Of a DNA stretch of 64,000 bases, positions 16,471-56,277 are shown piece by piece. The position numbers were made by a program, and so were the translations under genes. The stretch is taken from NCBI RefSeq assembly GCF_053078305.1, contig NZ_CP166879.1; one strand, given 5' to 3'. The first letter of the stretch is position 1, and each line of letters starts with the position of its first letter. The notes beneath the pieces are model-generated. The model saw nothing but the letters and a program-made list of their open reading frames with translations, was not told the DNA's origin and did not search any database.

Positions 16471-16953
16471 ATGGCGATAAAAGGGCTTGATCAGGCGATT
16501 GATAATCTGAGCCGGGTTCGTAAAAACGCCATTCCTGCTGCTTCAGCAATGGCCATTAACCGCGTGGCCACAACGGCAATAAATCAGTCTGCGTCACAGG
16601 TTGCCCGTGAGACAAAGGTACGCCGGAAACTGGTAAAGGAAAGGGCCAGGCTGAAAAGGGCCACGGTAAAAAATCCGCAGGCCAGAATCAAAGTTAACCG
16701 GGGGGATTTGCCTGTAATCAGGCTGGGTAATGCGCGGGTTGTCCTGTCCCGACGCAGGCGACGTAAAAAGGGGCAGCGTTCATCCCTGAAAGGTGGCGGC
16801 AGTGTGCTTGTGGTGGGTAACCGTCGCATTCCCGGCGCGTTTATTCAGCAACTGAAAAATGGGCGGTGGCATGTCATGCAGCGTGTGGCCGGGAAAAACC
16901 GTTACCCCATTGATGTGGTAAAAATCCCGATGGCGGTGCCTGTAACCAGGTAA
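16471..16953 (+). pseudogene. Z: tail protein Z, upstream part truncated by Mu-like insertion (ends with 3 foreign codons)
   Basis: Matches remembered lambda Z to ...IPMAVP, then VTR-stop from inserted DNA; remainder found at 56278-56391. Confidence 0.8.
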
Positions 16954-17245
16954 ATCATTTGATACCGACAAGGGTTTTAGTGAAAGGAGGTGAAATCACC
17001 TGTAAGATACTGAAATAAAACAGGTGATCGATGATTCTGGAGGTTGTTTAGTTTTGATACTGATTAAATAAAATCCGGTATAAAATTAAGGTATCGGCAA
17101 CAAATTTGATACTGCACATACTGCTTATGGACGTTTTTAAAAGTACTTAAAATGTCTTTTATGCTAAAAAGTTTATATCAATATCGATCTGGTCACAAAT
17201 CAAGTTGAAAGTGCTCGCTAAGTGCATAGCCTGGGCTTCATGGGG

Positions 17246-17764
17246 TTACGCTTTGGCTTCTTTATGGGTTAAATTGAAATGATGCTCCTTGGTTTCATCT
17301 CCCTCGAAAATCTCTCTAACCTTTTGATCTGATAAATTATTAAGGCTCAATGCTGCCAGGCGTCGAATACCTGTTAAAGCGATCAACTCTTGATTCTCTT
17401 GATTGCAGAATTCCAGCAATTTTTCTACCCCTTTCCTTCTCAAGGTGTAAATAACTAATTCTTGCTCTTCTTGGCTCAAAGTGTCGATGAGTTCGAGCAA
17501 CTCGCTATTGCCACCGTTCTTTTGAGGGGGCTGGTGTTTTATTTCTGCACTACCTGTAATGATGGAAACAACATGTGCAGGTAAGTCGCTTAAACGGTAG
17601 GCAAATGCTCTCCCTCTGATACCAGGTGTAGTTACCGAACGTTTTTCCCATCCTTCATTTTTTGCTCGTTTATGAAGCCCAGCCAGAGATGAAGGAAGAC
17701 CTCCAACCCCCAACAAGTCACTGGCAAGGATCCATTCTTGGTCAAGGATCATATCAAACTCCAT
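17246..17764 (-). CDS. c: Mu-type repressor c
   Basis: 172 aa leftward gene at left end; N-terminal DNA-binding domain shared with transposase N-terminus (LPSSLAGLHK). Confidence 0.7.
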   Translation of the reverse strand: MEFDMILDQEWILASDLLGVGGLPSSLAGLHKRAKNEGWEKRSVTTPGIRGRAFAYRLSDLPAHVVSIITGSAEIKHQPPQKNGGNSELLELIDTLSQEEQELVIYTLRRKGVEKLLEFCNQENQELIALTGIRRLAALSLNNLSDQKVREIFEGDETKEHHFNLTHKEAKA

Positions 17765-17981
17765 TTGATATTAACTTTTGTTTATATCTTTTATGCGGTT
17801 TATTTCAAAAATAACTCAATAAAAAACAAATAGATACAGAGCAAATTTAAAAATTTGAAATTAACCAGTTGATATTTACTAAGTTAATATCTAACATATC
17901 AAACATACACTAGTGAGTAACTCAATAGAGTAGCACACATGAGTAATAAAGTTTGCCATAGAAAGTACACAGGGGGCCATT

Positions 17982-18227
17982 GTGAGTCTTATTGAAGATT
18001 GGTCTTCCGCCGATATAAAGGCAGCCTTAGAAAAACGCGATACCAATTTGTCACGTTTATCAAGGGAAAATAATTTGCAGCCTAGGACTTTGGGTAATGC
18101 TTTGCGAGTTCCCTACCCTAAAGGTGAAAAGATAATTGCTAGGGCTATAGGTGTAGAGCCACAGGTTATTTGGCCTACTAGATATGAACGACGTGCGCGG
18201 AGGAAATATGTGGGTTGCAATGACTGA
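17982..18227 (+). CDS. ner: Ner-like DNA-binding protein
   Basis: 81 aa; GTG start with AGGGGG RBS; resembles Ner/Nlp family. Confidence 0.7.
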   Translation: MSLIEDWSSADIKAALEKRDTNLSRLSRENNLQPRTLGNALRVPYPKGEKIIARAIGVEPQVIWPTRYERRARRKYVGCND

Positions 18228-20292
18228 ATTGATTTCATTCAGTGACCTACCTAGTTCTTTGGCAGGTCTGCACAAAAAAGCAAAGAGGGAAGCGTGGAAA
18301 ACGCGGCTAAAACCAGGGGTAAAAGGGAAAGTTTTAGAGTGTGAAATAGGAGCTTTGCCTTTAACTGTTCAGCAGGCAGTACGCGAACGCCATGCCCTGC
18401 AACTGATGACGCAAAAAGCCGATGAATCACCGGCTCCGGTGGTGACAAAGGCCAGACGCTCACCTGCCGTGGTTGATGCGGTGGAGGCATATCGCGGATC
18501 ACCCCAACTGATGGTCGAACGCCTCAATGCCCTGACTGAAAATCAGCGCCAGGTGGCTGATGCACGAATCGCGATCGTCAGCGAAGTTCTGAAAGTCGCG
18601 CAACAACCTGGTTTCAGCTGTGCGAAGGCTATCCGGTTTATCGTTGACAACCTGGCACGTTCGCAGTTGGACGAGCGCATTGTGGCAATGGTTGAGACGG
18701 CGAACGCCAAAAAGGGAAACAGCCGCGCGTTAAGTGAAATCACGCTGAAACGCTGGATTGCGGCCTTTAACAAGGCGCAGAACGCCGCTGAACGCCTGCT
18801 TTTACTGGCACCGGGTAAGCGCCAGGAAATAAAAGCCGAAGATATTAACTGGCTGCCCGAATTTCTGGCGCAGTATCGCCAGTCAAACGGCCGACCAATG
18901 ACCGAGGCTTACGAGGATTTTGTCGCTGAATGGCAGCACCGGCACGCCGATGAGCCTTATATGCTCGATATCATGCCGTCTTATGACACCATTCGCCGCG
19001 CAATGAAGAAACTGCCGGAAGTGGTGAAACAAAAAGGCCGGGTGACCGGCAGTGAATACCGCCAGCTTGAGGGATTCACGCGCCGCGACTGGTCAAAAAT
19101 GCCGGTGAATTATGTCTGGATTGGTGACGGTCACGGCATGAAGCTGAAATGCGCACACCCGGTTCACGGTCGGCCATTTGCACCGGAAGTGACCTTTGTT
19201 ATCGACGGTGGCACGCGCTTTGTGGTGGGCTGGAGCCTTGACCTGGCTGAAAATGTTTTCGCCGTAGCCGGTGCCATACAGCACGGCATTCGCCATCACG
19301 GCAAACCGTTTCTGTATTACTCGGATAACGGCTCCGGGGAAACCGCCGACATCCTGGATAAGGAGGTTGTGGGGATACTGCCGCGACTGGGGATTAATCA
19401 CCCGACCGGGATTGCCGGTAATCCGCAGGGACGAGGCATTATCGAACGGCTTAACCGCACATTACCGATGCGCATAGCCCGTAAATACCGCACCTATTTC
19501 GGGAAAGGTGCAGATCGCGAGACGTTACGCAAAACCAACCGCGATTTACGCTCGGCATTTACTGCCCTGCAACAGGGCAAACGGCTGAACGCCCGGCAGC
19601 AGTCAGCGATGCGTGATTTACCGTCCTGGTCTGAACTGATTGATGCCATTCGTGACGGTGTTGAGTGGTACAACAACCGGCCGCACGATGAATTACCGGT
19701 GAAGCCGAACGGCAAGCATTACAGCCCGGCGGAGTTCAGAAAAAAACGCCTGGCGGAAGAGGACACGGAAATTGAATGGCTGTCCGATGTTGAGCTGCGG
19801 GATATGTTCCGGCCGATGGTGGAACGCCCTGTAAGACGCTGTGAAATACGCTGGCTGAATAATATTTACTACGCGCCCGAGCTGCGTGACGAGCATGGTC
19901 GTAAGGTGCTTATCAGCTATGACATTCATGATGCCGAACGAATTACCGTACGTCGCCTGGATGGCAGCGTGATTTGCGAGGCGGTATGGGACGGTAATAA
20001 ACGCGAAGCCTTCCCGGTTAGCGCGGAATACTACAAACAGCAGCAACGCCTTAAAGGCATGCGTAAACGCGCAGAGGAAAAAATCCGTGATGCCGAGGAT
20101 GAGGTTGTCAACGTGCTGGAGCACAAGCCGCAGGAGCCCTGGCTGGAAAACATATACCGCCCTGTGGGTAATACGGTGACCGTTCAGCAACCGGTCGCTG
20201 ACGATGAACCTGATGAAGAATACGAGCGTAATTTCCAGCGGGGATTGCAGTTGCTGGAAGCGAAATTAAAAGAAAATGACCCGCTGGCCTGA
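18208..20292 (+). CDS. A: Mu-type DDE transposase A
   Basis: ~694 aa; position after ner, repressor-like N-terminal domain, large catalytic core. Confidence 0.8.
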   Translation: MWVAMTELISFSDLPSSLAGLHKKAKREAWKTRLKPGVKGKVLECEIGALPLTVQQAVRERHALQLMTQKADESPAPVVTKARRSPAVVDAVEAYRGSPQLMVERLNALTENQRQVADARIAIVSEVLKVAQQPGFSCAKAIRFIVDNLARSQLDERIVAMVETANAKKGNSRALSEITLKRWIAAFNKAQNAAERLLLLAPGKRQEIKAEDINWLPEFLAQYRQSNGRPMTEAYEDFVAEWQHRHADEPYMLDIMPSYDTIRRAMKKLPEVVKQKGRVTGSEYRQLEGFTRRDWSKMPVNYVWIGDGHGMKLKCAHPVHGRPFAPEVTFVIDGGTRFVVGWSLDLAENVFAVAGAIQHGIRHHGKPFLYYSDNGSGETADILDKEVVGILPRLGINHPTGIAGNPQGRGIIERLNRTLPMRIARKYRTYFGKGADRETLRKTNRDLRSAFTALQQGKRLNARQQSAMRDLPSWSELIDAIRDGVEWYNNRPHDELPVKPNGKHYSPAEFRKKRLAEEDTEIEWLSDVELRDMFRPMVERPVRRCEIRWLNNIYYAPELRDEHGRKVLISYDIHDAERITVRRLDGSVICEAVWDGNKREAFPVSAEYYKQQQRLKGMRKRAEEKIRDAEDEVVNVLEHKPQEPWLENIYRPVGNTVTVQQPVADDEPDEEYERNFQRGLQLLEAKLKENDPLA

Positions 20293-20363
20293 AATAAAAA
20301 AATAACCCGAGCGGCGACTCAGGTTATTTGATTAAACAAGGTATCAAATGAAAGGTTAATAAT

Positions 20364-21296
20364 ATGACTGATATTAACGATGTAATCAAGACCATTGATG
20401 AACTTATTGATGGCGGCGTACTGACGCAGTATGCCATCGCCAGAGAGGCGGGAATTTCCGACGGCACATTATCGGCTTTCCGTAAGGGAAAATATAAAGG
20501 CGATAACGCTGCTGTGGCTGCTTCCCTGCGTTCCTGGTATGAGAACTGGAATAAACAAAGCGCACTGCCGGAACCGCCGCAGTTTGTGGAAACGCAGACA
20601 GTCCAGGAGCTGCGCACACTGTTTCAGGCGGTTCGTCTGATGGGCTGTATTAACGTTATTGTGGGCGTACCGGGTGTGGGTAAAACGGCCACTGCCCGTA
20701 ATTACTGCCAGGAGCAACCAAACACCTGGATGATCACCCTGTCACCCGCGCACTCCAGCGTCACGGAGTGTCTGCTGGAGCTGGCCGATGCGCTGGGGAT
20801 TGATTACACCCGCGCGAACAAAGGGGCATTATCCCGCGCCATCCGCCGTCGCCTGATGGGAACGCGTGGACTGGTGATTGTGGATGAGGCGGATCATCTT
20901 GGTATTGACGGTCTGGAGCAACTCCGGGCAATTCAGGACGCCACGGGGATCGGGATGGTGCTTATTGGTAACCCGCGCGGATTGTTTAAAGGTGGACGCC
21001 GCGCCTTTGATGATTTATCGCGCCTGTTCAGCCGTCTTGCCCGTACAAAACAACTTCGCAAGGCCAAAAAGGCGGATGTGCTGGCCATTGCCAGTGCGTG
21101 GGGGATCAGTGGTGAGGCCGAGCTGGCCGTCATGCAGGCTATCGCTGAAAAGCCGGGAGCGTTACGCGTTCTGACACATACGCTTAACCAGGCGTGGCTC
21201 ACCGCCAGCGGTGAAGGCGCGGCGCTGACAGAAAAACATATTAATGCGGCCTTTAAAGAGGTTTATACCAACCCTGAATTACTCTCACAGGTGTGA
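20364..21296 (+). CDS. B: transposition ATPase B (AAA+)
   Basis: 310 aa; Walker A GVPGVGKT, Walker B VIVDEADHL. Confidence 0.8.
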   Translation: MTDINDVIKTIDELIDGGVLTQYAIAREAGISDGTLSAFRKGKYKGDNAAVAASLRSWYENWNKQSALPEPPQFVETQTVQELRTLFQAVRLMGCINVIVGVPGVGKTATARNYCQEQPNTWMITLSPAHSSVTECLLELADALGIDYTRANKGALSRAIRRRLMGTRGLVIVDEADHLGIDGLEQLRAIQDATGIGMVLIGNPRGLFKGGRRAFDDLSRLFSRLARTKQLRKAKKADVLAIASAWGISGEAELAVMQAIAEKPGALRVLTHTLNQAWLTASGEGAALTEKHINAAFKEVYTNPELLSQV

Positions 21297-21520
21297 TTAT
21301 GGCGGTATTTAATATTCCTGATATTTACGGACGCTTTTACCTGGTTAATTTCGATAACGTGAAGGTGATTTCACTGGCCGAAAATAAAGAATGTGGCGAT
21401 TTACTTTTTGAATTTAATGACCGCACACGAATGGTGATATCTGCCGGACTTGATCGCGAAGGTGCGACAGACGTTTACAGCGGAATATGCCGTTCTGTTG
21501 GTGCGAAACAAGTCAGCTAA
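21293..21520 (+). CDS. hypothetical protein (Mu-like early region)
   Basis: 75-aa ORF overlapping B stop. Confidence 0.4.
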   Translation: MIMAVFNIPDIYGRFYLVNFDNVKVISLAENKECGDLLFEFNDRTRMVISAGLDREGATDVYSGICRSVGAKQVS

Positions 21521-21787
21521 ATGAGGTGTTATATGAATATGCAATCCTGCGGTAACAAAATGAATTTATTCGACTCCCTGAACAGCGCGCGCCGTCTGAC
21601 CGAACTTGCCGGTGCGGTACTGGAACGCAGTAAGCGCTATCCGCAACGTTTTGCACTGAAAACCACGCCGCCGGTAGGCAACGTGCAGGGAACCGGTGAA
21701 ATTGAAATCACCATACAGACCAACGGCCTGCGCCGCCGTGTGAAGGCCACCCGCATCAGCGGCTGCACGGTTTACTGGGAGGTGTGA
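21521..21787 (+). CDS. hypothetical protein (Mu-like early region)
   Basis: 88-aa ORF. Confidence 0.4.
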   Translation: MRCYMNMQSCGNKMNLFDSLNSARRLTELAGAVLERSKRYPQRFALKTTPPVGNVQGTGEIEITIQTNGLRRRVKATRISGCTVYWEV

Positions 21788-21864
21788 GGTGAAAAAAAAA
21801 TCTCATTGCATGGGCGTGGTCGAGTGGTCTTATTGAGTTTGGTTACGTCCTGCCGGAAGGTGCA

Positions 21865-22071
21865 TTGCCGATAGTTGCCGGAAAGCCTGCCACGGTACGG
21901 CATGTGATTGAGGTTATGGCGCGTCATGGACGTGATGAACAGGAGCAGTTACTGGTTCCGGGGATACCGGAAGCGGTGACGGAGGAAGAAGCCTTTAATG
22001 CCATGATTCGGTTCTGCCGTGAGGTCAGACGCCGGGTCAGTTATCCAAACAGAACGAGGACCAGAGGATGA
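21865..22071 (+). CDS. hypothetical protein
   Basis: 68-aa ORF. Confidence 0.35.
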   Translation: MPIVAGKPATVRHVIEVMARHGRDEQEQLLVPGIPEAVTEEEAFNAMIRFCREVRRRVSYPNRTRTRG

Positions 22072-22340
22072 GTAAAGTCGTACGCATTATTTTCGAATAC
22101 AAGGAGCACGTTATCCATAAAAACGCGGATGGAACAGTGCGCATGGGGATAAGTCTGGACATACGTTCAACCGGGATAAAGCAGAAAGGTGATGGACCTG
22201 CCATGATTTTTGGGGTGGTTATGCTCGCGGAAAGCAGAGACTTTGCTGAACTTGTGGCAATGAAAGCCAGTGCGCTCATGAAAGATATGAGCATGCGTTC
22301 CGGGGTTATTAAAGGTAATGAATTTAATCAGCAGGGGTAA
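22068..22340 (+). CDS. hypothetical protein, paralog pair member 1
   Basis: 90 aa; MSKVVRIIFEYK similar to next gene MSKVRVIFEFK. Confidence 0.45.
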   Translation: MSKVVRIIFEYKEHVIHKNADGTVRMGISLDIRSTGIKQKGDGPAMIFGVVMLAESRDFAELVAMKASALMKDMSMRSGVIKGNEFNQQG

Positions 22341-22344
22341 TTCC

Positions 22345-22638
22345 ATGAGCAAAGTACGCGTTATTTTTGAATTTAAGCATGTTTCGCATGACGAAAAACC
22401 GGCAGGCAATGACTGTGTTGAAGTGCATGAAAAGATTGGTGTGGATGTAAAAACAGAACGTGATACGAATAACAGGCCGACGTCACTCTGTGACGTTTAT
22501 GTAAGTATTCTCCAGTATCACAGTCCTGAAATTATTCAGTTTCTCTCAGCGGAATTTCAGGCATCTGTACAGGCTTTTGGGGCGGATGCCATCATTAAAC
22601 GCCACCGCGTGCATAAAGCATCAGGCACACTGCAATAA
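22345..22638 (+). CDS. hypothetical protein, paralog pair member 2
   Basis: ATG at 22345 with GGGG RBS; similar N-terminus to previous gene. Confidence 0.45.
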   Translation: MSKVRVIFEFKHVSHDEKPAGNDCVEVHEKIGVDVKTERDTNNRPTSLCDVYVSILQYHSPEIIQFLSAEFQASVQAFGADAIIKRHRVHKASGTLQ

Positions 22639-22649
22639 GGAAAAACAAA

Positions 22650-23180
22650 ATGGCAAAACGCGTTACAAAATTAAAGGCCGCAGCAGAGGCGGCACCGCAG
22701 ACCCGTGAAGAGGTCAGCCGCGATATCCGCACCCTGGGCGATATTCAGCGAGAGGCGCTGCGCCTGGAAACAGCGATGAATGATGAAGTGGCAGAAATCA
22801 CCGCCCGTTATACGCCGCAGATTGAAAACCTTAAAAAAGAAATCAAAGTGCTTTTTAAGGGGATTCAGGACTGGTGCAAAACCAACCGTGATGAGCTGAC
22901 GAACGGCGGCAAAACCAAAACTGCCAATCTGACCACCGGAACAGTGTCATGGCGGCTGGGAAATCCATCATGCAGCGTCAGCCGTGATGTGGAAGGTGTG
23001 ATTGAAATGCTGCGCCGTATGGGGCTTGAGCGATTCATCCGCACGAAAGAGGAAGTGAACAAGGAAGCGGTCCTGGCGGAGCCGGATGCAGTGAAAGGCA
23101 TTGCCGGTATTAAGGTGAATAAAGGCGCTGAAAGTTTTTATGTCGAGCCTTTTGAACAGGACGCCGGACTGAATAAATAA
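22650..23180 (+). CDS. gam: host-nuclease inhibitor Gam (Mu-type)
   Basis: 176 aa; DIQREALRLETAMNDEVAEIT...ANLTTGTVSWR...RFIRTKEEVNKEA matches remembered Mu Gam. Confidence 0.8.
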   Translation: MAKRVTKLKAAAEAAPQTREEVSRDIRTLGDIQREALRLETAMNDEVAEITARYTPQIENLKKEIKVLFKGIQDWCKTNRDELTNGGKTKTANLTTGTVSWRLGNPSCSVSRDVEGVIEMLRRMGLERFIRTKEEVNKEAVLAEPDAVKGIAGIKVNKGAESFYVEPFEQDAGLNK

Positions 23181-23277
23181 CACCGCATTAAATCTTTAAA
23201 TATCACATCGTTTTAAGTATGGCGCTCGCGTCAGGGGACTGTCTGCGCCTGTAAACTGAAAATAAGGAACAGGATAT

Positions 23278-23820
23278 ATGGCATATTTTTATTTCAAATT
23301 AGACCGTGTGCAGACAAATAAATATTTCACCAAATATCAACAGACTGTTTTACCGCTACGCAACAGTATTCTTCGGGCATTACTGAAAAATACAGGCGCT
23401 GCCGGATTGCGCTTAAAGCCGTTTGCCATGGACGTAATCAGTGAGTTTTATTTTTCTGGTACTCTGCCTGCGGGCTGGCGTAAGCGCGATGATGTGGCTT
23501 TTATCGGGGACGGACCGTGCTTTATTGCCAGACCTGATGAGTCATGCCCTGAAGGACCGGCGATTGCCGCAATGATTGAAGCCGCTGAACGCGAGTTAAG
23601 AAAGCGTCCTGATTTCCTTGTCTGGCTCTGTGAAAAGCTGGGGGTAATGAGAATCCCCTCCATGTTTAACATGGACTCCTGGTGGACCCCGTCGCTCTCC
23701 CGTGATGCCCTGTGCGTGGTGTTTAAAGTAGGCGCTTATGGCAGGGAAATAAAAGGGGGTATTCCTGAAGAATGCCAGGAGATTAAACATTCTGAATATG
23801 TGGCGCTGACGGAGGAATAA
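23278..23820 (+). CDS. hypothetical protein
   Basis: 180-aa ORF. Confidence 0.45.
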   Translation: MAYFYFKLDRVQTNKYFTKYQQTVLPLRNSILRALLKNTGAAGLRLKPFAMDVISEFYFSGTLPAGWRKRDDVAFIGDGPCFIARPDESCPEGPAIAAMIEAAERELRKRPDFLVWLCEKLGVMRIPSMFNMDSWWTPSLSRDALCVVFKVGAYGREIKGGIPEECQEIKHSEYVALTEE

Positions 23821-23823
23821 TTC

Positions 23824-24872: not shown

Positions 24873-24875
24873 TGT

Positions 24876-25427: not shown

Positions 25428-25609
25428 TAAAGAGACTTGTATTTTTCGCAATTTTCGTTCCGGTGTTGGGGGTTGGTTTTATATTTGCGATTACAGGAAA
25501 CCTGTCCATGATGCCAGATATTTGGTTCTTTATCAGGATGTCGCTCTTCCTGTTTATTATGAATCTTCTTATCGACATATATATCCGTATTACTGGAAAA
25601 CATAAATGA
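25424..25609 (+). CDS. small hydrophobic membrane protein
   Basis: 61 aa, strongly hydrophobic. Confidence 0.35.
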   Translation: MIKRLVFFAIFVPVLGVGFIFAITGNLSMMPDIWFFIRMSLFLFIMNLLIDIYIRITGKHK

Positions 25610-28694: not shown

Positions 28695-28704
28695 GGAAAA
28701 AGGT

Positions 28705-29508: not shown

Positions 29509-29510
29509 CG

Positions 29511-49130: not shown

Positions 49131-50017
49131 TGTATTTTGTCGACAACAATTCAGGTGTGACCGATATGCCACCACTGGCCCCCTCTCAGGGTACGCAGGT
49201 TAAATGGTTTACTGAAGGTGACGGACGCAAAGGGATCAGCCATATCGGTCAGGACTGGCTGAACATCGTGCAGGCAGAGCTGCTTGCCATTCTGACAGAA
49301 GGAAAGGTTCAGCCGGATAAGGCAAAACTGAACCAGCTGGTGACAGCCATTAAGGCAATCATTGCAGCAAACGCATACAGCCGGAAAAACAACCTTAAGG
49401 AGATTGCGGATGCAGGTGCAGAAGCACAGGCTGCTGCCCGCCGTCATCTGGGGCTGGGAGGATTATCAGGAAAAGACAGTCTGGCTGCTGCTGATGTGGG
49501 AGCACTGGAGAAATCCCGGAATTTTGACGATGTACCGGATAAACCGACGGCCCGCCTGAATCTTGATGTTTACAGTAAGGGAGAAGGCGATGAGCGTTAT
49601 CTGCGCAGGGACCAGAATGGCGCGGATATCCCGGACAAAGGAACCTTTATCGATAACCTCGGTTTACGGGAAACGGTAAATAAGGCTGCTGATGCCCTGC
49701 CATCGGGTGGAACCGCCGTGGCAGCGAATAAACTCGCCACCCCAGTAAATATTAATGGCGTTCCTTTCGACGGAACGCAGGATATCAATATTACATCGGG
49801 GATGACGCAGTCTGTGGCTGACTCACGTTATGTTCAAAGCATTCGAAGAGGTTCAAGGTCAACGATTGGAATGCAATATAATATTTTTGAAGTTCCTGAC
49901 GGATGCGTACTTACAGGGCTTGATGTCGCTGGTGATGGTAATGCAACGGTAACCGCATATTATCGCCCTGTTCAGTTTCTGATAAATGGTTCGTGGAAAA
50001 CAGCTTCCAGCGCATAA
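49130..50017 (+). CDS. tail fibre protein S (constant part plus variable part Sv in current orientation)
   Basis: 295 aa; C-terminal third lies inside the invertible segment. Confidence 0.75.
   Translation: MYFVDNNSGVTDMPPLAPSQGTQVKWFTEGDGRKGISHIGQDWLNIVQAELLAILTEGKVQPDKAKLNQLVTAIKAIIAANAYSRKNNLKEIADAGAEAQAAARRHLGLGGLSGKDSLAAADVGALEKSRNFDDVPDKPTARLNLDVYSKGEGDERYLRRDQNGADIPDKGTFIDNLGLRETVNKAADALPSGGTAVAANKLATPVNINGVPFDGTQDINITSGMTQSVADSRYVQSIRRGSRSTIGMQYNIFEVPDGCVLTGLDVAGDGNATVTAYYRPVQFLINGSWKTASSA
49655..49788. repeat. left inverted repeat of invertible tail-fibre segment (134 bp)
   Basis: Reverse-complement identical to 50906-51039 by manual comparison. Confidence 0.8.
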
Positions 50018-50096
50018 AAGTGCAGTAGTTCAAAAAACAGATTATCTGAATAAATATATGATGATTTTGTCTTTTCAACAAAAACAAGGTGAAATA

Positions 50097-50618
50097 ATGG
50101 AGCTTATTAACGTAAAACGATATTACCCGGAACACAAACCCTATGGTGAGGATGTTCAGTATTTCCAGAGTGAGGACGGAAGGGATTTTTATGAATCTCT
50201 CCCGCTTTTCACAAAGAAATACAAACTCTGTATTTCGCCTGTAACGGGTATTATCTGCTCTGTTGCTGAAGATGTCTCTGCTTTATATCCGGCAGGTTTT
50301 ACTGTTGTTGAAGTGGACGAACTGCCGGAAGGTGTGGATATTGACGGTAACTGGCAGTTTTCTGATGGCCTGATATCAAAGGTGCCGGTAAACTGGAAGA
50401 CGGTTGCTGAAAAGCGCCGCTCATCGCTGCTCCAGGAAGCCAACGAAACTGTGGATGACTGGAAAACGGAATTAAAACTGGACATGATTAGCGATGAAAA
50501 TAAATTACAGCTGACGCGCTGGATGGCGTATATCCGACAGCTTAAAGAAATGCACTTTAATGATATTGCCAGTGAGGGGCATTACCAGGCGATTCCCTGG
50601 CCGGAAAAACCGGAATAA
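50097..50618 (+). CDS. tail fibre assembly protein (U-like)
   Basis: 174 aa from ATG at 50097; inside invertible segment. Confidence 0.7.
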   Translation: MELINVKRYYPEHKPYGEDVQYFQSEDGRDFYESLPLFTKKYKLCISPVTGIICSVAEDVSALYPAGFTVVEVDELPEGVDIDGNWQFSDGLISKVPVNWKTVAEKRRSSLLQEANETVDDWKTELKLDMISDENKLQLTRWMAYIRQLKEMHFNDIASEGHYQAIPWPEKPE

Positions 50619-50652
50619 TTCAGAGGGTGCATTCAGCACCCTTTTCTGTGGT

Positions 50653-50976
50653 TTACACTGAACTTACCGTTCTCCAGGCATTATTAATATAAATCTGAAC
50701 CGGGCGATAATAGACCCCACCGATATTGTCCGCAGACCGGGAGCCGGTTTCCTGCACGTTAATACCGGAAAGCATACAACCGGAAGGTGCGCTGTAATTC
50801 CATGACATTTCATTGCCTCCGGGTGAATGATAGCTCTGTGCTCCAAGCTGAACATTCTGTACATACCGGCCATCTGCGGTTGACTGCGTCATTCCTGACG
50901 TGATGTTGATATCCTGCGTTCCGTCGAAAGGAACGCCATTAATATTTACTGGGGTGGCGAGTTTATTCGCTGCCAC
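50653..50976 (-). CDS. alternative tail-fibre C-terminal cassette (Sv'), promoterless in current orientation
   Basis: Minus-strand ORF homologous to S C-terminus (ANKLATPVNINGVPFDGTQDINITSGMTQS...). Confidence 0.7.
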   Translation of the reverse strand: MAANKLATPVNINGVPFDGTQDINITSGMTQSTADGRYVQNVQLGAQSYHSPGGNEMSWNYSAPSGCMLSGINVQETGSRSADNIGGVYYRPVQIYINNAWRTVSSV

Positions 50977-51039
50977 GGCGGTTCCACCCGATGGCAGGGC
51001 ATCAGCAGCCTTATTTACCGTTTCCCGTAAACCGAGGTT
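50906..51039. repeat. right inverted repeat of invertible segment (134 bp)
   Basis: Partner of 49655-49788. Confidence 0.8.
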
Positions 51040-51101
51040 TCAGGGATGTCGTATATCTGCTTTAAAAGGCATTTTCACCTCTTTTTAAGGAAGGTAAATA
51101 C

Positions 51102-51662
51102 ATGCTGATTGGCTATATACGCGTATCAACAAATGACCAGAACACAGGTTTACAAAGAAATGCGCTGGAATGTGCAGGATGTAAGCTGATTTTTGAAGAT
51201 AAAATGAGCGGAAAAACAACGCAGCGGCCGGGACTGAAGCGGGCACTGAAGAAACTAAAACCCGGTGACACGCTGATGGTCTGGAAACTGGACAGGCTGG
51301 GGCGCAGTATGCGCCACCTTGTTGCGCTGACAGATGAATTACAGCAACAGGGGATAAATTTTCGTAGTCTTACTGACAACATTGATACGTCAACCCCCAT
51401 GGGGCGCTTCTTTTTTCACATAATGGGTGCGCTGGCAGAAATGGAGCGTGAATTGATTGTCGAACGGACACGGGCTGGTCTTGCAGCTGCCCGTGAAAGG
51501 GGACGAACCGGTGGCAGACCCCGTCGTCTCACGCAGGAACAATACGAGCAGGTCGGGCGTTTACTGGCCGGGGGTGTCAGCCGAAGACAGGTGGCACTTA
51601 TTTTTGATATCGGCCTTTCAACCCTTTATCGTTATTATCCTGCAAGCATTTCGGAAAAATAA
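51102..51662 (+). CDS. gin: serine recombinase, Gin/Hin/Pin-family DNA invertase
   Basis: MLIGYIRVSTNDQ catalytic N-terminus, C-terminal HTH; adjacent to inverted repeats. Confidence 0.9.
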   Translation: MLIGYIRVSTNDQNTGLQRNALECAGCKLIFEDKMSGKTTQRPGLKRALKKLKPGDTLMVWKLDRLGRSMRHLVALTDELQQQGINFRSLTDNIDTSTPMGRFFFHIMGALAEMERELIVERTRAGLAAARERGRTGGRPRRLTQEQYEQVGRLLAGGVSRRQVALIFDIGLSTLYRYYPASISEK

Positions 51663-51752
51663 GACGCTCCCTTTGTTGGGCCTTTACTGAATTAACGCAA
51701 AATGGCGTTTATCGGTCTGTGGATATGATAATTCTGTTTATTCAGGAACAGG

Positions 51753-53810
51753 ATGAATATTATGACGTCCAAATGGGTTCAACTATCATCAATGCCCGGA
51801 AACTTTACCGTTAAAGTTTCCGGTGGTACAGCGGCATTTCTTGAGGCTCCTTTTCCTCCGGCTGAAACGAAAGGAGGAATGACATTTGCTGACTGTCTCA
51901 TCAGTTTTAATACACAGGATTGCCTGTGGGTAAGGCCAGTATCCGGTGATCCGAACGTGGAAATTACCGGAGCGGGTATTGGTGCTGTCATTCCGTTAAG
52001 TGCTGATGTTGCCGGTACTACTGAACCGTCAGACTGGGATAATGCTGAAACACATACCCGTCCGGCAGGAAATGAAACGGCTTCCAGCTCCCCTTCCTGG
52101 TATTACGTGATTGTTATAGCCGGTCAGTCCAATGCTTCATCTTATGGTGAAGGGTTGCCCCTGCCGGATTCTTATGATCGTCCTGATCCACGTATTATGC
52201 AGCTGGCACGCAGGAATACACAAACCCCCGGAGGTATTCCCTGCAAATACAATGAAATCATTCCAGCAGATCACTGCCTTCATGATGTTCAGAATATGAG
52301 TCTGCTGAACCATCCAAAAGCAGACCTGAAAAAAGGGCAGTATGGTTGTGTGGGTCAGGGACTTCATATTGCGAAAAAAGTATTACCGGTGATTCCTGCT
52401 GATGCCGGGATTTTACTGGTTCCCTGTGCCCGTGGCGGCTCTGCTTTTACAACCGGCGCAGTTGGCTCATTCGATCCGGCAAGTGGTGCAGCCGAGGCGT
52501 CACTACGCTGGGGAGTGGATACCCCACTGTATCAGGATCTTGTCAGTCGAACGAAAGCGGCACTTGAGGCGAATCCAAAGAATGTGCTGTTATCTGTCGT
52601 ATGGATTCAGGGGGAAGGAGACCTTAAAGCGACCCCGGCCCAGCATGGTGCCCAGTTTACTGCGATGGTGAAAAAATTCCGTGCGGATCTTGGTGCTTTC
52701 TCCGGTCAGTGTATTGGTGGTTCATCAGACAGTGTGCCGTGGTTATGTGGTGACACAACCTATGACTGGAAAGAGAAGAACCCGGCGGCATATGAAACCA
52801 TTTATAGCGGATATAAAAACCGGGCTTCCGAGAACATTCACTTTGTTCCACTGATGCACGATGAGTTCGGTAATAAAACCGCGACCAACCTGCCGGAGCA
52901 CGACCCGGATATCGCTTCTGCCGGGTATTATGGTGCGGAATCACGGGGAGATGGCAACTGGACAACAGCATCCAGGGCAACCCATTTTAGCTCCTGGGCG
53001 CGCCGTTTTCTGGTCTCAGATCGTTTTGCATCAGCAATTCTTAAATATGCAGGTCTGACCTCTGCATTTATTGCCGGTGTGGCCCCTGATGGTGAAGCCC
53101 TGCCTCAGCCCGCGCCGGGTGGAAAACCGGAAGCTCCGACAGGTAGTCAGCCAGGAAGCAGTGAGTCCCCCCAGCCGACATCCCCGTCACTCCGTACGCT
53201 GCTTTCACTTAAAGCATCAGCAGGGGAAGCCCCGGCTCAGGGATGGAAAATTACAGATGGTACAATCCAGCTGACGGACGAAGGTAAAGCGCTGACCGTA
53301 TCCAAACAAAGCGGAAAAACCTGGTCACTTACCCATGCGACCAGTGCTGCCGGAGAGCTGTTGCAGCATGGTGGTCAGTTGACCTGTAAATTCCGTCTGT
53401 CAGGTGAAGTAAAAGAAGGCCAGTTTGCTCTGGGTATTTACCTCCACACCGATACGGTCCCGGAAGGTGTAACCATGAGTGGTACAGGCACACCGTTCCT
53501 GATGGCGTATTATCTCCAGACAACAGGCGGCCAGTTAAATCTGATGCACCATAAAACAGGGGGGAATACGAAACTGGGATCATTTGGAGCCTACAATAAC
53601 CAGTGGCATACACTTGTCCTGAAGTTTACGGCGGGAAGTGCCCAGGTAACGCCTGTGCTGGATGGCACTCCGGGCCAGGCATTCCAGATGGTGAAAGATG
53701 CACTTTCCCCTGCCAAAGATACGCTGACACTGACAGATGTCACCAAAGGGGCAACTTATGGCGTGTCTTTTGAGAGCGTTGTCCTTGAGGTTAATACCCC
53801 TGCGGCATAA
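51753..53810 (+). CDS. NanS-p-like sialate O-acetylesterase (SASA-type esterase with lectin-like C-terminal domain), tentative
   Basis: 685 aa; GQSNASSYGEG esterase motif; cargo position between gin and com/mom. Confidence 0.5.
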   Translation: MNIMTSKWVQLSSMPGNFTVKVSGGTAAFLEAPFPPAETKGGMTFADCLISFNTQDCLWVRPVSGDPNVEITGAGIGAVIPLSADVAGTTEPSDWDNAETHTRPAGNETASSSPSWYYVIVIAGQSNASSYGEGLPLPDSYDRPDPRIMQLARRNTQTPGGIPCKYNEIIPADHCLHDVQNMSLLNHPKADLKKGQYGCVGQGLHIAKKVLPVIPADAGILLVPCARGGSAFTTGAVGSFDPASGAAEASLRWGVDTPLYQDLVSRTKAALEANPKNVLLSVVWIQGEGDLKATPAQHGAQFTAMVKKFRADLGAFSGQCIGGSSDSVPWLCGDTTYDWKEKNPAAYETIYSGYKNRASENIHFVPLMHDEFGNKTATNLPEHDPDIASAGYYGAESRGDGNWTTASRATHFSSWARRFLVSDRFASAILKYAGLTSAFIAGVAPDGEALPQPAPGGKPEAPTGSQPGSSESPQPTSPSLRTLLSLKASAGEAPAQGWKITDGTIQLTDEGKALTVSKQSGKTWSLTHATSAAGELLQHGGQLTCKFRLSGEVKEGQFALGIYLHTDTVPEGVTMSGTGTPFLMAYYLQTTGGQLNLMHHKTGGNTKLGSFGAYNNQWHTLVLKFTAGSAQVTPVLDGTPGQAFQMVKDALSPAKDTLTLTDVTKGATYGVSFESVVLEVNTPAA

Positions 53811-54082
53811 TCGTGACGGCCGGGAATTTATCCGGCTGTAACATCAGTTAATAAGAGTGAGGCTTATATGACATATATAAACGTCTGCCTGCTGTATTTC
53901 TGCACGGTGGTTTGTTGTCTGTTGCTTGTCAGCGGTGGTTATAAAATTATTCGCAATTATTTTCGAAATAAAATTGATGCAGCTGCCGAGGAAAAGATAA
54001 AAAGCGGTGCTGTAATGCCGCAGCCGAAAGACTCCGGTCAGATTTAATTTTTTGTGAACCAGAAAAGGAAAGGAGAATATTC

Positions 54083-54328
54083 ATGCCAGAGATTAAAGGC
54101 ACGGTTACTGAAGAGCTTGTCAAACAGGCACTTTATTCTGAAGAAGTGAACCGCGTGCTGAAGGCGCAGGTTCGCAAGGATTTTGAGGCACAAATCGACG
54201 CATATGTTGATGAAGTGCTGGCCCGAATGGTTGGCCATTCTCCGGCTGAAAACAGCACGGAGAATGAGCCTCAGCCCGTAGAGCAACCAGAGCCGGTTCA
54301 GCCCGGAACTGACAGTGCCATGATGTAA
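54083..54328 (+). CDS. hypothetical protein
   Basis: 81 aa, AAGGAG RBS. Confidence 0.4.
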   Translation: MPEIKGTVTEELVKQALYSEEVNRVLKAQVRKDFEAQIDAYVDEVLARMVGHSPAENSTENEPQPVEQPEPVQPGTDSAMM

Positions 54329-54402
54329 CAATACAAACCGACAGCTTCTCCTGTCGGTTTGATTTTCATGGGCGATGTATATACCAGTCAGAGGAAATAA
54401 TC

Positions 54403-54603
54403 ATGGACAAGAACAAAAAGCAGCCCGATACCAAAGGTCTGGAAATATTAAGCGCAGAAATTATCAATGCGCTACGTTCAGGACTTGATGAAAATACATT
54501 ACAGGATCGAAACTTCACCACTGCAATGTGGATAGCGATGCAGATCCTGTGTACCCCAAGATGCGCTATTTTTGCGGTTCGTGAGGGTCAGTTGACTCGC
54601 TGA
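54403..54603 (+). CDS. hypothetical protein
   Basis: 66-aa ORF; competing antisense ORF 54566-54796. Confidence 0.3.
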   Translation: MDKNKKQPDTKGLEILSAEIINALRSGLDENTLQDRNFTTAMWIAMQILCTPRCAIFAVREGQLTR

Positions 54604-55258
54604 TTGCCCGAATTACATCAGAAAAGCACGCGTTCCATAATTGCATAGCTGATGAATCACCAGCTGTATGAAAAGAGGTAAAGACACAACTGGTGGATGT
54701 CATTGCTGCAATTGTGATATCAGCTGCAATTCGCGCAGCCTGTAACTTTTGGTCGGTGGTCAGTTTATCCATTTTCTCCTGCCTGAACAGATGCATCTCT
54801 GCTTTACAGGAGGCCGGGGAATATCATAGGATACACCACGAGCTCAGAGTGAAGCATTGATGCAGTTTTTTACAGATTGACCCAGAATAGTTCGCGCTAT
54901 CTGAGTCGCCATTTATGTAGTCCCGAAGTAAAGCATTGATGCAAACTTGTCTAAATCGGCCCAGCATAGTTCCAGCTATGCTGGGTTTCCCTTTTATGTA
55001 GTATCCTGTTGATTTGAAACATACTACATATACGCGCGATCCTACCTTCACTGGATAAAAAGTCAATAAAATGATCATTTTATGATCGTTTTCACCACCT
55101 AACTCTTCGTTTTCTTTAAGTAAATAATCACCGCCCTGAATCATTGTTGATGACTTTTCAATCTATTTGTTGTATCAATTAAACAAATCGAATCGATCGT
55201 TTTTGTCGATCGATTGCATGAGAAAGGCATCAACAACAAAGCAGGAGGTTATGCGGCC

Positions 55259-55459
55259 ATGTATCGAAACATACGGTGCCGACACTGCAATAAGCTACTG
55301 GCACGGGCCAGTTTCAGTTATCTGGAAGTAAAATGTCCGCGCTGTAAAACCCTCAATCAAATCACATCTCCGAGCGCCACAGAGCACCCCACATACACAA
55401 GGAAATCCTGTCGTGGGGAACAGAAAGCAAGTCACATCCCGTATCATCAGCACGCCTGA
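55259..55459 (+). CDS. com: Com zinc-finger translational activator of mom
   Basis: CRHCNKLL...CPRCK zinc finger; overlaps start of mom. Confidence 0.75.
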
Positions 55460-56150
55460 ACTTATTCGCTATAACGACAATATCGTTGGTTATGGTTCCC
55501 GTGAGTTGCGGGTTGAGACAATAAGTTGCTGGCTGGCCAGACTGGTTATCGTCAATAAACATTACAGCCACCGTTTCGTAAATAACTCCTACCTTCATCT
55601 GGGCATATTTTCAGAACGGGAACTTGTTGGCGTAATGCAATGGGGTTACGCCCTTAACCCAAACAGTGGTGCACGCGTCGTAACGGGTACGCAGAACCGA
55701 GAATATATGGAGCTGAACCGGCTATGGATGCATGACTGTATGCCGAGAAACTCCGAATCAAGGGCAATCAGTTACGCGCTCAAGCTAATCAGGCAGCTTT
55801 ATCCGCAGGTACAGTGGGTTCAGTCGTTTGCAGATGAGCGTTGTGGCTGTCTTGGTGTCGTGTATCAGGCAAGCAATTTTGATTATGTAGGCAGCCATGA
55901 AACAATATTCTATGAACTTGATGGCGAGTGGTATCACGAGATTTGCAGGAATGCCATTAAACGAGGCGGACAACGAGGTGAACATCTGAGGGCTAATATC
56001 GACAGAGCCAGTGTGCATAAGTTCCGACAGTTTCGTTACATCCGGTTTCTGAACAAGAGGGCCAGAAAACGCCTCAACACAAAGCTATTCAAAGTCCAGC
56101 CTTACCCAAAACCACAAACAGTTAAAACTGGTTTGAAAGAGAGTGAATGA
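55413..56150 (+). CDS. mom: DNA modification protein Mom
   Basis: 245 aa at extreme right end after com, as in Mu. Confidence 0.7.
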
Positions 56151-56277
56151 GCGCTTAAAAACTCATTCTAAAACTCAAAAGAAAAGCGCCGATTTAGTAT
56201 CAAATAAGTTGCGTATCGGCGTTTTTCAGCGGTATCAAATGAAATGCAAATCGGTATCAAAAAAATCGCCGCGCTAT

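What the first reader, a model, noticed from the sequence alone, without database searches (positions are those of the whole stretch)
16941..56277. Complete Mu-like transposable prophage (~39.3 kb) inserted within lambda-type gene Z
The Z reading frame stops after ...PMAVP at 16940 and resumes with PLTTAFKQ... near 56281. The intervening DNA has Mu organisation and Mu-type end architecture: three TTTGATAC motifs within ~170 bp of the left end and three inverted GTATCAAA motifs at the right end. Flanking pentamers GTGCC (16936-16940) and ATGCC (56278-56282) look like a 5-bp target duplication with one mismatch. The left end begins TG but the right end does not obviously end CA.
Basis: partly seen in the sequence, partly recalled or inferred. 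Interest (0 to 1): 0.7.

Follow-up and report, generated by a model that had tools for sequence, protein, structure and literature searches.

The report
Mu-like prophage inside lambdoid tail gene
A complete 39.3-kb transposable (Mu-like, Sp18-type) prophage has jumped into the tail-completion gene Z of a lambda-like prophage; this is a well-known E. coli phage behaving in a known way, so the finding is correct but ordinary.

Summary
Window 16941-56278 (39,338 bp) is an intact Sp18-type Mu-like prophage. It matches Sp18 of E. coli O157:H7 Sakai at 96.8% identity over 90% of its length, and other E. coli copies at 96-98% over nearly the whole length. It has the full Mu gene order, from c-ner-A-B to gin-com-mom.

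Removing it in silico restores a 192-aa lambda-type Z. The joined flanks then align colinearly with an uninterrupted lambdoid prophage, whose empty site reads GGTGCC^GCTGACC.

Two details need correcting:
- The element ends at 56278, not 56277.
- The "5-bp duplication with one mismatch" is an exact 4-bp duplication (TGCC) plus a phage-borne terminal A.

All 11 independent insertions of this phage lineage that I examined have TG...TA ends and an exact 4-bp duplication. Mu itself has CA ends and a 5-bp duplication. The end architecture otherwise mirrors Mu: L1 and R1 at 6-27, R2 at 28-49.

Sp18-like phages nested in lambdoid and Stx prophages are already published, and GenBank records annotate them with the same 4-bp repeat. 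Novelty is therefore low.

In passing, the same lambdoid prophage also carries an 11.8-kb integrase-borne, capsid-encoding satellite inside its portal gene.

The parts
16471..16940 (+). 5' part of lambda-type tail-completion gene Z (codons 1-156 plus 2 nt). As it stands, the ORF runs on into the phage end and stops at 16953.
   Evidence: Translation. In-silico excision restores a 192-aa Z. PHROG 27 match and 88-90% identity to Z of lambda-type phages.
16937..16940 (.). Left copy of the 4-bp target-site duplication, TGCC.
   Evidence: The empty site in L009 reads GGTGCC^GCTGACC. All 11 Sp18-type insertions examined have an exact 4-bp duplication.
16941..56278 (+). Sp18-type Mu-like transposable prophage, 39,338 bp. 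Termini are 5'-TGTAACC...GCGCTATA-3'. Early to late genes read left to right on the + strand.
   Evidence: Megablast breakpoints at query positions 300/301 at many different E. coli loci. 96-98% identity to L002-L004. 96.8% identity over 90% of the length to Sp18. Synteny with Mu.
16946..17114 (+). Left end (attL) with three repeated sites: L1 16946-16967, L2 17041-17062, L3 17093-17114. The conserved core is TTTGATAC(C/T)G. The 22-bp extents are set by analogy with Mu.
   Evidence: Offsets are 6-27, 101-122 and 153-174, against Mu L1 6-27, L2 111-132, L3 151-172.
17246..17764 (-). c-type immunity repressor. The annotated homologue is 168 aa (17249-17752).
   Evidence: PHROG 7148 transcriptional repressor, E 9e-47. 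99.4% identical to the 'DNA-binding protein' of L003. Its N-terminus resembles the N-terminus of the transposase (41.8% over 55 aa) and the Mu c repressor (PDB 1g4d).
17982..18227 (+). ner-type early regulator.
   Evidence: 53% identity to Mu Ner. PHROG 769.
18184..20292 (+). Transposase A (702-aa ORF; relatives are annotated from 18208, giving 694 aa). Candidate DDE residues are D315, D381 and E421.
   Evidence: Pfam HTH_Tnp_Mu_1 (5.6e-8), Mu-transpos_C (3.5e-17) and weak rve. PHROG 310, E 2e-206. BLASTP alignment to MuA puts GDG/DN on MuA's GDG/DN; E421 is placed by motif.
20364..21296 (+). MuB-type AAA+ target-DNA activator.
   Evidence: 48.7% identity to Mu B over 300 aa. PHROG 296.
22650..23180 (+). 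Gam host-nuclease inhibitor.
   Evidence: 57% identity to Mu Gam. 100% identical to the L003 homologue.
26453..27457 (+). GemA-like gene (26453-26962) and a single Mor/C-family late activator (27032-27457).
   Evidence: 43% identity to Mu GemA; 39% to Mu C and 26% to Mu Mor.
27529..28694 (+). Lysis genes: endolysin, Rz-type and Rz1-type.
   Evidence: PGAP names in relatives.
29511..37753 (+). Head module: small terminase (29511-30092), extra 82-aa ORF (30103-30351), large terminase (30348-32015), portal (32015-33604), F (33588-34913), G (35032-35505), protease I (35682-36806), major head protein T (36806-37753).
   Evidence: 47-72% identity to Mu D, E, H, F, G, I and T in the same order. Full-length matches to L003.
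37797..49130 (+). Connector, contractile tail and baseplate module: sheath 39444-40946, tube 40955-41320, tape measure 41938-44013, N 44000-45349, baseplate genes 45333-49130.
   Evidence: 35-61% identity to Mu gp35-gp48 in the same order. 90-100% identity to L003.
49130..51039 (+). Tail-fibre gene (49130-50017) reading into a G-like invertible segment. The segment is bounded by 182-nt inverted repeats (49655-49836 and 50858-51039) and carries a tail-fibre assembly gene (50097-50615) plus an alternative fibre C-terminus on the minus strand (51039-50656). It lies in the opposite orientation to Sp18, L002, L003 and L004.
   Evidence: Inverted repeats, 91% complementary. The segment aligns in reverse to relatives. 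Protein matches.
51102..51662 (+). Gin-type serine DNA invertase.
   Evidence: 74% identity to Mu Gin. PHROG 125 DNA invertase, E 5e-94.
51753..55144 (+). Cargo region absent from Mu: DUF6645 protein (51753-53810), a DUF1378-like ORF (about 53868-54032), DUF826 (54083-54328), and a truncated minus-strand ORF (54824-55144).
   Evidence: PGAP names in relatives. PHROG 143. Mu has com directly after gin. The same DUF6645-DUF1378-DUF826 trio sits upstream of the holin in lambdoid prophage L009.
55259..56150 (+). com (55259-55459) and mom (55413-56150) DNA-modification genes.
   Evidence: 47% identity to Mu Com and 79% to Mu Mom. PHROG 1384 Mom-like.
56195..56278 (-). Right end (attR) with three repeated sites: R1 56252-56273, R2 56230-56251, R3 56195-56216. 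The terminal dinucleotide is TA.
   Evidence: Offsets are 6-27, 28-49 and 63-84, against Mu R1 6-27, R2 28-49, R3 56-77. The core-to-tip distance (17 nt) is identical at both ends only if 56278 is the last base.
56279..56282 (.). Right copy of the 4-bp target-site duplication, TGCC.
56283..56391 (+). 3' part of gene Z. The reading frame resumes with CC of the duplicated TGCC plus G56283 (Pro), then LTTAFKQ...KR*.

Best explanation
Window 16941-56278 is an intact Sp18-type Mu-like temperate phage. It entered the tail-completion gene Z of a resident lambda-type prophage by DDE transposition.

Shown here:
- Exact boundaries of the element.
- A restored Z and a matching empty site.
- Termini identical to those of 10 other copies at unrelated loci.
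- An exact 4-bp duplication in all 11 cases.
- A full set of Mu-order genes, apparently undamaged.
- Three repeated sites at each end, laid out as in Mu.

Inferred from homology to Mu:
- The A protein (Mu-type HTH, DDE core and Mu C-terminal domain) binds the TTTGATAC(C/T)G sites L1-L3 and R1-R3 and pairs the ends.
- The MuB-like ATPase delivers target DNA.
- The two 3'-OH ends (...ACA-3' on the bottom strand at the left end, ...ATA-3' on the top strand at the right end) attack the target 4 bp apart, and gap repair duplicates TGCC.
- Lysogeny is held by the divergently transcribed c repressor, which shares its N-terminal DNA-binding domain with A.
- After derepression the phage would replicate by transposition, switch on late genes through its Mor/C-type activator, package by headful, flip its tail-fibre segment with Gin and modify its DNA with Mom.

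Inferred consequence: the lambdoid host prophage has lost Z and has 39 kb inserted between its head and tail genes. It is almost certainly dead as a phage, the more so because its portal gene is also interrupted.
For: Boundaries. Megablast of both junctions against 5,426 complete E. coli genomes breaks at the junction in every hit, with the phage half found at many unrelated genes such as ypdA, hyfF, yahO, torZ, appC and cas3.

Ends and duplication. Eleven insertions were read directly. Their duplications are TGCC, TTTT, TCTG, TTAA, CTGA, ATAA, CGAG, AGAG, AGAG, CATC and TAAA. The base 5' of the left copy is A in only 3 of 11, while the right junction always has A. GenBank LC727881 and LC727895 annotate the same boundaries and a 4-nt 'duplication due to insertion of Mu'.

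Empty site and Z..

Identity to the Sp18 family..

Synteny with Mu. 39 proteins at 25-79% identity, in order.

Transposase. Domains and the DDE alignment.

End-site layout compared with Mu..

Independent record of the left junction. IMG/VR contig UViG_2617271340_000001 is 99.9% identical to window 4643-17412.

Literature. Sp18 is predicted to be intact and its DNA is packaged (PMC2669165). Of 10 Sp18-like phages in CC119 STEC, 6 sit in mobile elements including Stx phages (PMC10132054). Insertion sites are strain-specific in O157 (PMC7430833).
Against: Transposition activity, inducibility and particle production of this particular copy are inferred from intact ORFs only.

The transposase core is very divergent from MuA. 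BLASTP is significant only for the N- and C-terminal parts, and the Pfam rve match is weak (E 0.02), so E421 of the DDE triad rests on a motif rather than a significant alignment.

Two textbook Mu hallmarks are not met: the 5-bp duplication and the CA at the right terminus.

No complete E. coli genome in the collection carries this junction. Support for its physical reality comes from the window itself plus one draft-genome contig that covers only the left junction.
Confidence: 0.95

Rival explanations
1. The duplication is a normal Mu-type 5 bp (GTGCC) whose right copy later mutated G to A.
For: Mu and its studied relatives make 5-bp duplications (established knowledge). In 3 of the 11 sites a 5-bp match is formally possible, because the target base happens to be A.
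Against: The base after ...GCGCTAT is A in 11 of 11 insertions, whereas the corresponding base left of the phage is G, A, A, G, G, A, T, T, T, T, T. A constant base is element-borne. The core-to-tip spacing (17 nt) is symmetric at both ends only if A56278 is the terminal base. The depositors of LC727881 and LC727895 annotated 4 bp.
Confidence: 0.02
2. The junctions are an assembly artefact, a chimeric join between a lambdoid prophage and a Mu-like prophage located elsewhere in the genome.
For: No complete E. coli genome shows this junction. Repeated prophages are classic sources of misassembly.
Against: Both junctions are base-precise at the known phage termini. They flank a single target position with the lineage-typical 4-bp duplication. 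Removal restores an ORF and colinearity with an empty site. An independent IMG/VR contig from an isolate genome carries the same left junction. A misassembly would not create a target duplication.
Confidence: 0.02
3. The element is a grounded, non-functional Mu-like remnant rather than a complete, potentially active prophage.
For: Activity was not tested. One small minus-strand ORF (54824-55144) is truncated relative to O157 copies. Two small early ORFs of the relatives are replaced at 25430-25635.
Against: All recognisable replication, regulation, lysis, head, tail, invertase and mom genes are full-length at 90-100% identity to relatives. Both ends are intact, with all six sites. The truncated ORF is also frameshifted in several relatives. 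Sp18 itself is reported to be intact and packaged (PMC2669165).
Confidence: 0.1
4. Z is a preferred, site-specific attachment site for this phage, so integration is targeted rather than transpositional.
For: None beyond the single occurrence. The literature notes frequent insertion in prophages.
Against: Eleven copies lie at eleven different sequences, with no shared target motif and no integrase in the element. No other genome has it in Z.
Confidence: 0.01

Closest known systems
Prophage Sp18 of E. coli O157:H7 Sakai and its relatives (Sp18-type Mu-like prophages of STEC and other E. coli)
   Same: 96.8% nucleotide identity over 90% of the length to Sp18, and 96-98% over nearly the whole length to copies in MDP9-27, Balcarce_24.2 and 98E11. 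The termini (TGTAACC...GCGCTATA), the 4-bp duplication, the gene order, the invertible fibre segment and the DUF6645 cargo are the same.
   Different: The insertion site (Z of a lambdoid prophage) is not seen in 5,426 complete genomes. The immunity region (most of 16941-18370, c and ner) does not match Sp18, though it does match other copies. There is an extra 259 bp with an 82-aa ORF between the terminase genes, present in only 24 of 5,426 genomes at about 94% identity. The DUF6645 allele is 60% identical to the O157 one. The fibre segment is flipped.
Bacteriophage Mu (AF083977)
   Same: The gene order is the same, from c-ner-A-B-gam through gemA, the Mor/C-type activator, lys, terminase, portal, F, G, I, T, sheath, tube, tape measure, N, P, baseplate, S, U and gin to com-mom. 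The repressor and transposase share an N-terminal domain. Each end has three sites, with L1 and R1 at 6-27 and R2 at 28-49. Both have a Gin-inverted fibre segment and Mom.
   Different: Protein identity is only 25-79%. The transposase core is barely alignable. The site core sequence is different (TTTGATACCG against RCGAAAR). R3 is direct here and inverted in Mu. The right terminus is TA rather than CA, and the duplication is 4 bp rather than 5 bp. About 3.4 kb of extra genes lie between gin and com. Only one Mor/C-family gene was detected.
Mu-like phages inserted in Stx-converting prophages (GenBank LC727881, LC727895; Microb Genom 2023, PMC10132054)
   Same: The same phage lineage (about 98% identity where aligned) nested inside a lambdoid prophage, annotated with the same boundaries and a 4-nt duplication. 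The paper reports 6 of 10 such phages inside mobile elements.
   Different: The host prophage and the position differ. Here the target is the tail-completion gene Z, and the host prophage additionally carries a satellite in its portal gene.

Membership tests
Mu-like transposable phages | DDE transposase with Mu-type architecture: N-terminal Mu HTH domain, RNase-H-like DDE core, Mu transposase C-terminal domain. | tested here: met
   Pfam HTH_Tnp_Mu_1 5.6e-8 and Mu-transpos_C 3.5e-17, with only weak rve (0.02). PHROG 310 transposase, 2e-206. BLASTP aligns D315 and D381 with MuA's GDG and DN motifs; E421 is placed by motif only.
Mu-like transposable phages | Adjacent MuB-type AAA+ transposition ATPase. 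| tested here: met
   20364-21296 is 48.7% identical to Mu B over 300 aa. PHROG 296.
Mu-like transposable phages | Divergent c repressor and ner at the left end, with the repressor sharing its N-terminal DNA-binding domain with the transposase. | tested here: met
   The repressor homologue also hits the transposase N-terminus (41.8% over 55 aa). The transposase N-terminus hits both the MuA Ialpha domain (1tns) and the Mu c repressor (1g4d). Ner is 53% identical.
Mu-like transposable phages | Several transposase-binding repeats at each end, in inverted orientation between the ends, with Mu-like spacing. | tested here: met
   Cores at offsets 18, 113 and 165 (left) and 18, 40 and 75 (right). The derived sites, L1 and R1 at 6-27 and R2 at 28-49, are identical in position to Mu's. 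Binding itself was not tested.
Mu-like transposable phages | Insertion at essentially random sites, without an integrase. | tested here: met
   Eleven copies at eleven unrelated loci, with no tyrosine or serine integrase other than Gin.
Mu-like transposable phages | 5-bp target-site duplication (the Mu prototype). | tested here: not met
   Exact 4-bp duplication in 11 of 11 insertions. This is a property of the whole Sp18 lineage, not of this copy.
Mu-like transposable phages | Termini 5'-TG...CA-3'. | tested here: not met
   The left end is TG. The right end is TA in 11 of 11 copies.
Mu-like transposable phages | Mu-order late genes, contractile tail, Gin-invertible fibre segment, com-mom at the right end. 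| tested here: met
Mu-like transposable phages | Replication by transposition, and headful packaging with host DNA attached to both ends. | not testable with these tools
   Reported for Sp18 only indirectly: it is not circularised and it is packaged (PMC2669165).
Sp18-type Mu-like prophages of E. coli | Near-identical nucleotide sequence and identical termini. | tested here: met
   96.8% identity over 90% of the length to Sp18. 96-98% to L002-L004. Identical terminal 26-mers, allowing at most 1 mismatch.
Lambda gpZ (tail completion protein), for the interrupted host gene | A protein of about 192 aa homologous to lambda Z, located between FII and U. | tested here: met
   The restored ORF is 192 aa. 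It matches PHROG 27 at 1.6e-67 and is 88-90% identical to Z of lambda-type phages. Its neighbours are head closure (PHROG 82) upstream, and tail terminator U (PHROG 37) and major tail protein V (PHROG 41) downstream.

The most novel reading that the evidence does not exclude
The Sp18 lineage may be a mechanistic variant of Mu transposition that has not been characterised. Its divergent A protein joins ends 4 bp apart instead of 5 and accepts a TA rather than CA 3' terminus at the right end, while keeping Mu's L1/R1/R2 site geometry. The pattern itself is solid (11 of 11 insertions). What is uncertain is whether it is undescribed. GenBank depositors already annotate the 4-nt repeat, and I found no paper in the searchable library that discusses it.
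Probability: 0.5. Interest if true: 0.35.

Novelty: already known. Interest (0 to 1): 0.2.

Why it matters
For annotation, the result gives base-exact boundaries. It also shows that the lambdoid prophage in this window is disabled twice: Z is split by the Mu-like phage and the portal gene is split by a satellite. The lambdoid prophage should therefore not be scored as a functional phage.

More generally, this is one more instance of Sp18-type phages landing in other prophages, a documented route of prophage decay and mosaicism in E. coli and STEC.

The only point of wider interest is the lineage-wide 4-bp duplication and the TA right terminus. If biochemically confirmed, these would give a natural comparison for how the Mu transpososome sets its target stagger and how much it needs the terminal CA.

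Tried and rejected
- 5-bp duplication with a mismatch: rejected after reading 11 insertion sites.
- The same junction in complete E. coli genomes and in one genome per GTDB species: none found. The IMG/VR scan found one draft-genome contig carrying the left junction.
- Significant sequence match of the transposase core to solved MuA core structures: only the N-terminal domain matched, and the core weakly hit retroviral integrases instead. Membership therefore rests on Pfam and PHROG profiles and on a BLASTP alignment.
- The tRNA that PGAP annotates as 'tRNA-OTHER' in relatives: ARAGORN and Rfam find nothing in the window, and the fold is not better than shuffles (z = -1.4). I do not call it a tRNA gene.
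- Literature on a 4-bp duplication for Sp18-like phages: two searches found nothing relevant. This is not proof of absence, because subscription journals are not covered.
- Target consensus: the 11 duplicated tetramers show no obvious shared motif, and the sample is too small to conclude anything.
Full report
**Observation**

The ORF that starts at 16471 encodes a lambda Z-like protein up to ...KIPMAVP at 16940. It then reads three foreign codons and stops. The remainder of Z (PLTTAFKQ...IAIKR*) is at 56281-56391.

Deleting 16941-56282 restores one 192-aa ORF. That ORF matches the tail-completion family PHROG 27 (E 1.6e-67) and is 88-90% identical over its full length to Z of lambda-type phages. 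It lies between a head-closure (FII-type) gene upstream and the tail-terminator (U) and major-tail (V) genes downstream.

The motif TTTGATAC occurs 9 times in the window against 1.7 expected.

**Empty site and boundaries**

The window with the segment removed aligns as a single 12.3-kb HSP (97.9%) with a lambdoid prophage of E. coli Z1323MEC0001. There the gene is intact and the site reads GATGGCGGTGCC^GCTGACC.

I searched both junctions against 5,426 complete E. coli genomes. Every hit breaks at the junction. The Z halves hit lambdoid tail genes. The phage halves hit copies inserted in many unrelated genes, including ypdA, hyfF, yahO, torZ, appC and cas3. No complete genome, and no GTDB species-representative genome, has this junction. 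An IMG/VR contig from an isolate genome carries the left junction and is 99.9% identical to window 4643-17412.

**Ends and duplication**

I read both ends of ten other copies: seven chromosomal copies, two in Stx phages, and Sp18 itself. All begin TGTAACCAGG and all end GCCGCGCTATA.

The four bases after the final A always repeat the four bases before the initial T. The eleven tetramers are TGCC, TTTT, TCTG, TTAA, CTGA, ATAA, CGAG, AGAG, AGAG, CATC and TAAA. The fifth base to the left of the phage is A in only 3 of 11 copies.

The A at 56278 is therefore the phage's last base. The element is 16941-56278 (39,338 bp) and the duplication is an exact 4 bp.

Two further points agree with this. The conserved core TTTGATACCG starts 17 nt from the tip at both ends only with this boundary. 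The depositors of LC727881 and LC727895 annotated the same boundaries and a 4-nt duplication.

**What the element is**

It is 96-98% identical over almost its entire length to Mu-like prophages of E. coli MDP9-27, O157:H7 Balcarce_24.2 and 98E11. It is 96.8% identical over 90% of its length to Sp18 of O157:H7 Sakai.

Every protein of the Balcarce copy has a full-length counterpart at 90-100% identity, with these exceptions:
- two small early ORFs are replaced;
- the fibre and DUF6645 alleles diverge;
- one minus-strand hypothetical ORF is truncated, and it is also frameshifted in several relatives.

Against Mu itself, 39 proteins match in the same order at 25-79% identity. They run from c, ner, A, B and gam through gemA, the Mor/C-type activator, lys, both terminase subunits, portal, F, G, I, T, connectors, sheath, tube, tape measure, N, P, baseplate, S and U to gin, com and mom.

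The transposase has Pfam HTH_Tnp_Mu_1 and Mu-transpos_C domains and a weak rve core. BLASTP aligns its GDG (D315) and DN (D381) motifs with those of MuA, and E421 is a motif-based guess. The N-terminal domain is shared with the repressor, as in Mu.

A 182-nt inverted repeat (49655-49836 and 50858-51039) bounds a G-like invertible tail-fibre segment next to a Gin homologue. The segment is flipped relative to Sp18 and the other relatives.

**End architecture compared with Mu**

I extended each core to a 22-bp site by analogy with Mu.

| Site | This element | Mu (computed from AF083977) |
|---|---|---|
| L1 | 6-27 | 6-27 |
| L2 | 101-122 | 111-132 |
| L3 | 153-174 | 151-172 |
| R1 | 6-27 | 6-27 |
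| R2 | 28-49 | 28-49 |
| R3 | 63-84 (direct) | 56-77 (inverted) |

The geometry is conserved even though the site sequences are unrelated.

**Mechanism**

Shown: the anatomy above, and random insertion with a fixed 4-bp duplication.

Inferred from Mu:
- A binds the six sites and pairs the ends.
- The MuB homologue delivers the target.
- The two 3'-OH ends attack Z 4 bp apart, and repair duplicates TGCC.
- The c repressor maintains lysogeny.
- Derepression leads to replicative transposition, Mor/C-driven late expression, headful packaging, Gin-mediated host-range switching and Mom modification.

Sp18 has been reported as predicted-intact, not circularised and efficiently packaged (PMC2669165).

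The consequence for the host prophage is also inferred. Z is truncated, 39 kb separates the head genes from the tail genes, and the portal gene is broken as well, so the lambdoid prophage should be non-viable.

**Comparison with what is known, and novelty**

Sp18-like phages at strain-specific sites are described for O157 (PMC7430833). In CC119 STEC, 6 of 10 such phages lie inside mobile elements, including Stx phages (PMC10132054). This is the same phenomenon at a new position, so I rate it as already known.

Two textbook Mu features are not met by the whole lineage: the 5-bp duplication and the CA right terminus. I found no paper discussing this in two searches, but the GenBank annotations show it has been noticed. 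It lowers the claim "identical to Mu in mechanism". It does not lower "Mu-like transposable phage".

**Rivals**

- A mutated 5-bp duplication is contradicted by the 11 sites.
- A misassembly would not produce a target duplication, and an independent contig shares the junction.
- A defective remnant cannot be excluded without experiments, but nothing in the sequence suggests it.
- Site-specific integration is excluded by the diversity of sites and the lack of an integrase.

**Other things seen**

Window 1-103 and window 11930 onward are the two halves of the lambdoid portal gene. Between them lies an 11.8-kb island flanked by AAAGCCAT(T/G)TATG. It carries:
- a tyrosine integrase;
- an AlpA-type ORF (position inferred from the relative);
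- an Ant/BRO-type protein;
- isrK and C4 RNAs followed by an Icd-like peptide;
- a RepA-type helicase-primase;
- an SSB;
- a major capsid protein;
- a head-decoration protein;
- a small terminase.

The same portal|integrase junction is present in 61 of 5,426 E. coli genomes. In strain EC28 a 10.9-kb island of the same organisation splits the portal gene of a different lambdoid prophage. This looks like a family of capsid-encoding satellites that use the lambdoid portal gene as their attachment site. It may deserve its own evaluation.

Noticed in passing
window 104-11932 (direct repeats at 93-105 and 11930-11942): A second mobile element sits in the same lambdoid prophage: an 11.8-kb island that splits the portal gene. 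It carries a tyrosine integrase (299-1540), an Ant/BRO-type gene (1854-2432), an Icd-like peptide, a RepA-type helicase-primase (5215-6624), SSB (7075-7485), a major capsid protein (8214-9269), a head-decoration protein (9281-9616) and a small terminase (10237-10791). It has no portal, large terminase or tail genes. The same portal|integrase junction occurs in 61 of 5,426 complete E. coli genomes, and strain EC28 has a similarly organised island in the portal gene of another prophage. This suggests a satellite family whose attachment site is the lambdoid portal gene.
   Followed up: partly
window 3806-3991 (+): Rfam matches to isrK (3806-3882, 66 bits) and C4 antisense RNA (3904-3991, 77.6 bits) lie inside the satellite, just upstream of the Icd-like coding end of the long ORF 2843-4237. 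That ORF is therefore probably not a real 464-aa gene. The arrangement looks like a P1/P7-type C4-icd-ant immunity module.
   Followed up: partly
window 34913-34996 (- strand), between the F and G genes of the Mu-like prophage: A tRNA-like sequence with an acceptor-like stem and a GGGTTCGACCCCC T-arm-like hairpin. PGAP annotates it as 'tRNA-OTHER' in five relatives (for example L002 18687-18766). ARAGORN and Rfam do not call it in the window, and its fold is no better than shuffles (z = -1.4). It is probably a degenerate tRNA remnant.
   Followed up: partly
window 30089-30347 (ORF 30103-30351): An extra 259 bp lies between the small and large terminase genes, relative to Sp18 and most relatives. 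It encodes an 82-aa protein of unknown function (PHROG 30922) whose C-terminus repeats the last 29 aa of the small terminase (69% identity). The variant is present in Mu-like prophages of only 24 of 5,426 E. coli genomes, at about 94% identity.
   Followed up: partly
window 51753-54328: The Mu-like phage carries a DUF6645-DUF1378-DUF826 gene trio between gin and com, which Mu lacks. The same trio sits upstream of the holin in the lambdoid prophage used as the empty-site reference (L009 2979-5566). The module is therefore shared between transposable and lambdoid phages. The window's DUF6645 allele is about 97% identical at the DNA level to those of L002 and L004, but only 60% identical at the protein level to the O157 allele.
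   Followed up: no
window 16941-18370, compared with L014 (Sp18), L001 and L012: The immunity region (c repressor, ner and the start of A) does not align by megablast with Sp18 or with the copy in LC727881, whereas the termini and everything from 18370 onward do align. It is 98% identical to the copies in L002-L004. The lineage therefore has at least two immunity types on an otherwise common backbone.
   Followed up: no
L008 38126-39332 (E. coli FHI_NMBU_11): In this relative the gene after com is annotated as a DNA cytosine methyltransferase (351 aa) instead of mom. This suggests that the DNA-modification gene at the right end has been swapped.
   Followed up: no
window 49655-51039: The invertible tail-fibre segment is in the opposite orientation to Sp18, L002, L003 and L004. 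In this orientation the fibre ORF (49130-50017) ends with the short alternative C-terminus and is followed on the same strand by the tail-fibre assembly gene (50097-50615). In the Sp18 orientation the expressed fibre has no same-strand assembly gene downstream.
   Followed up: partly
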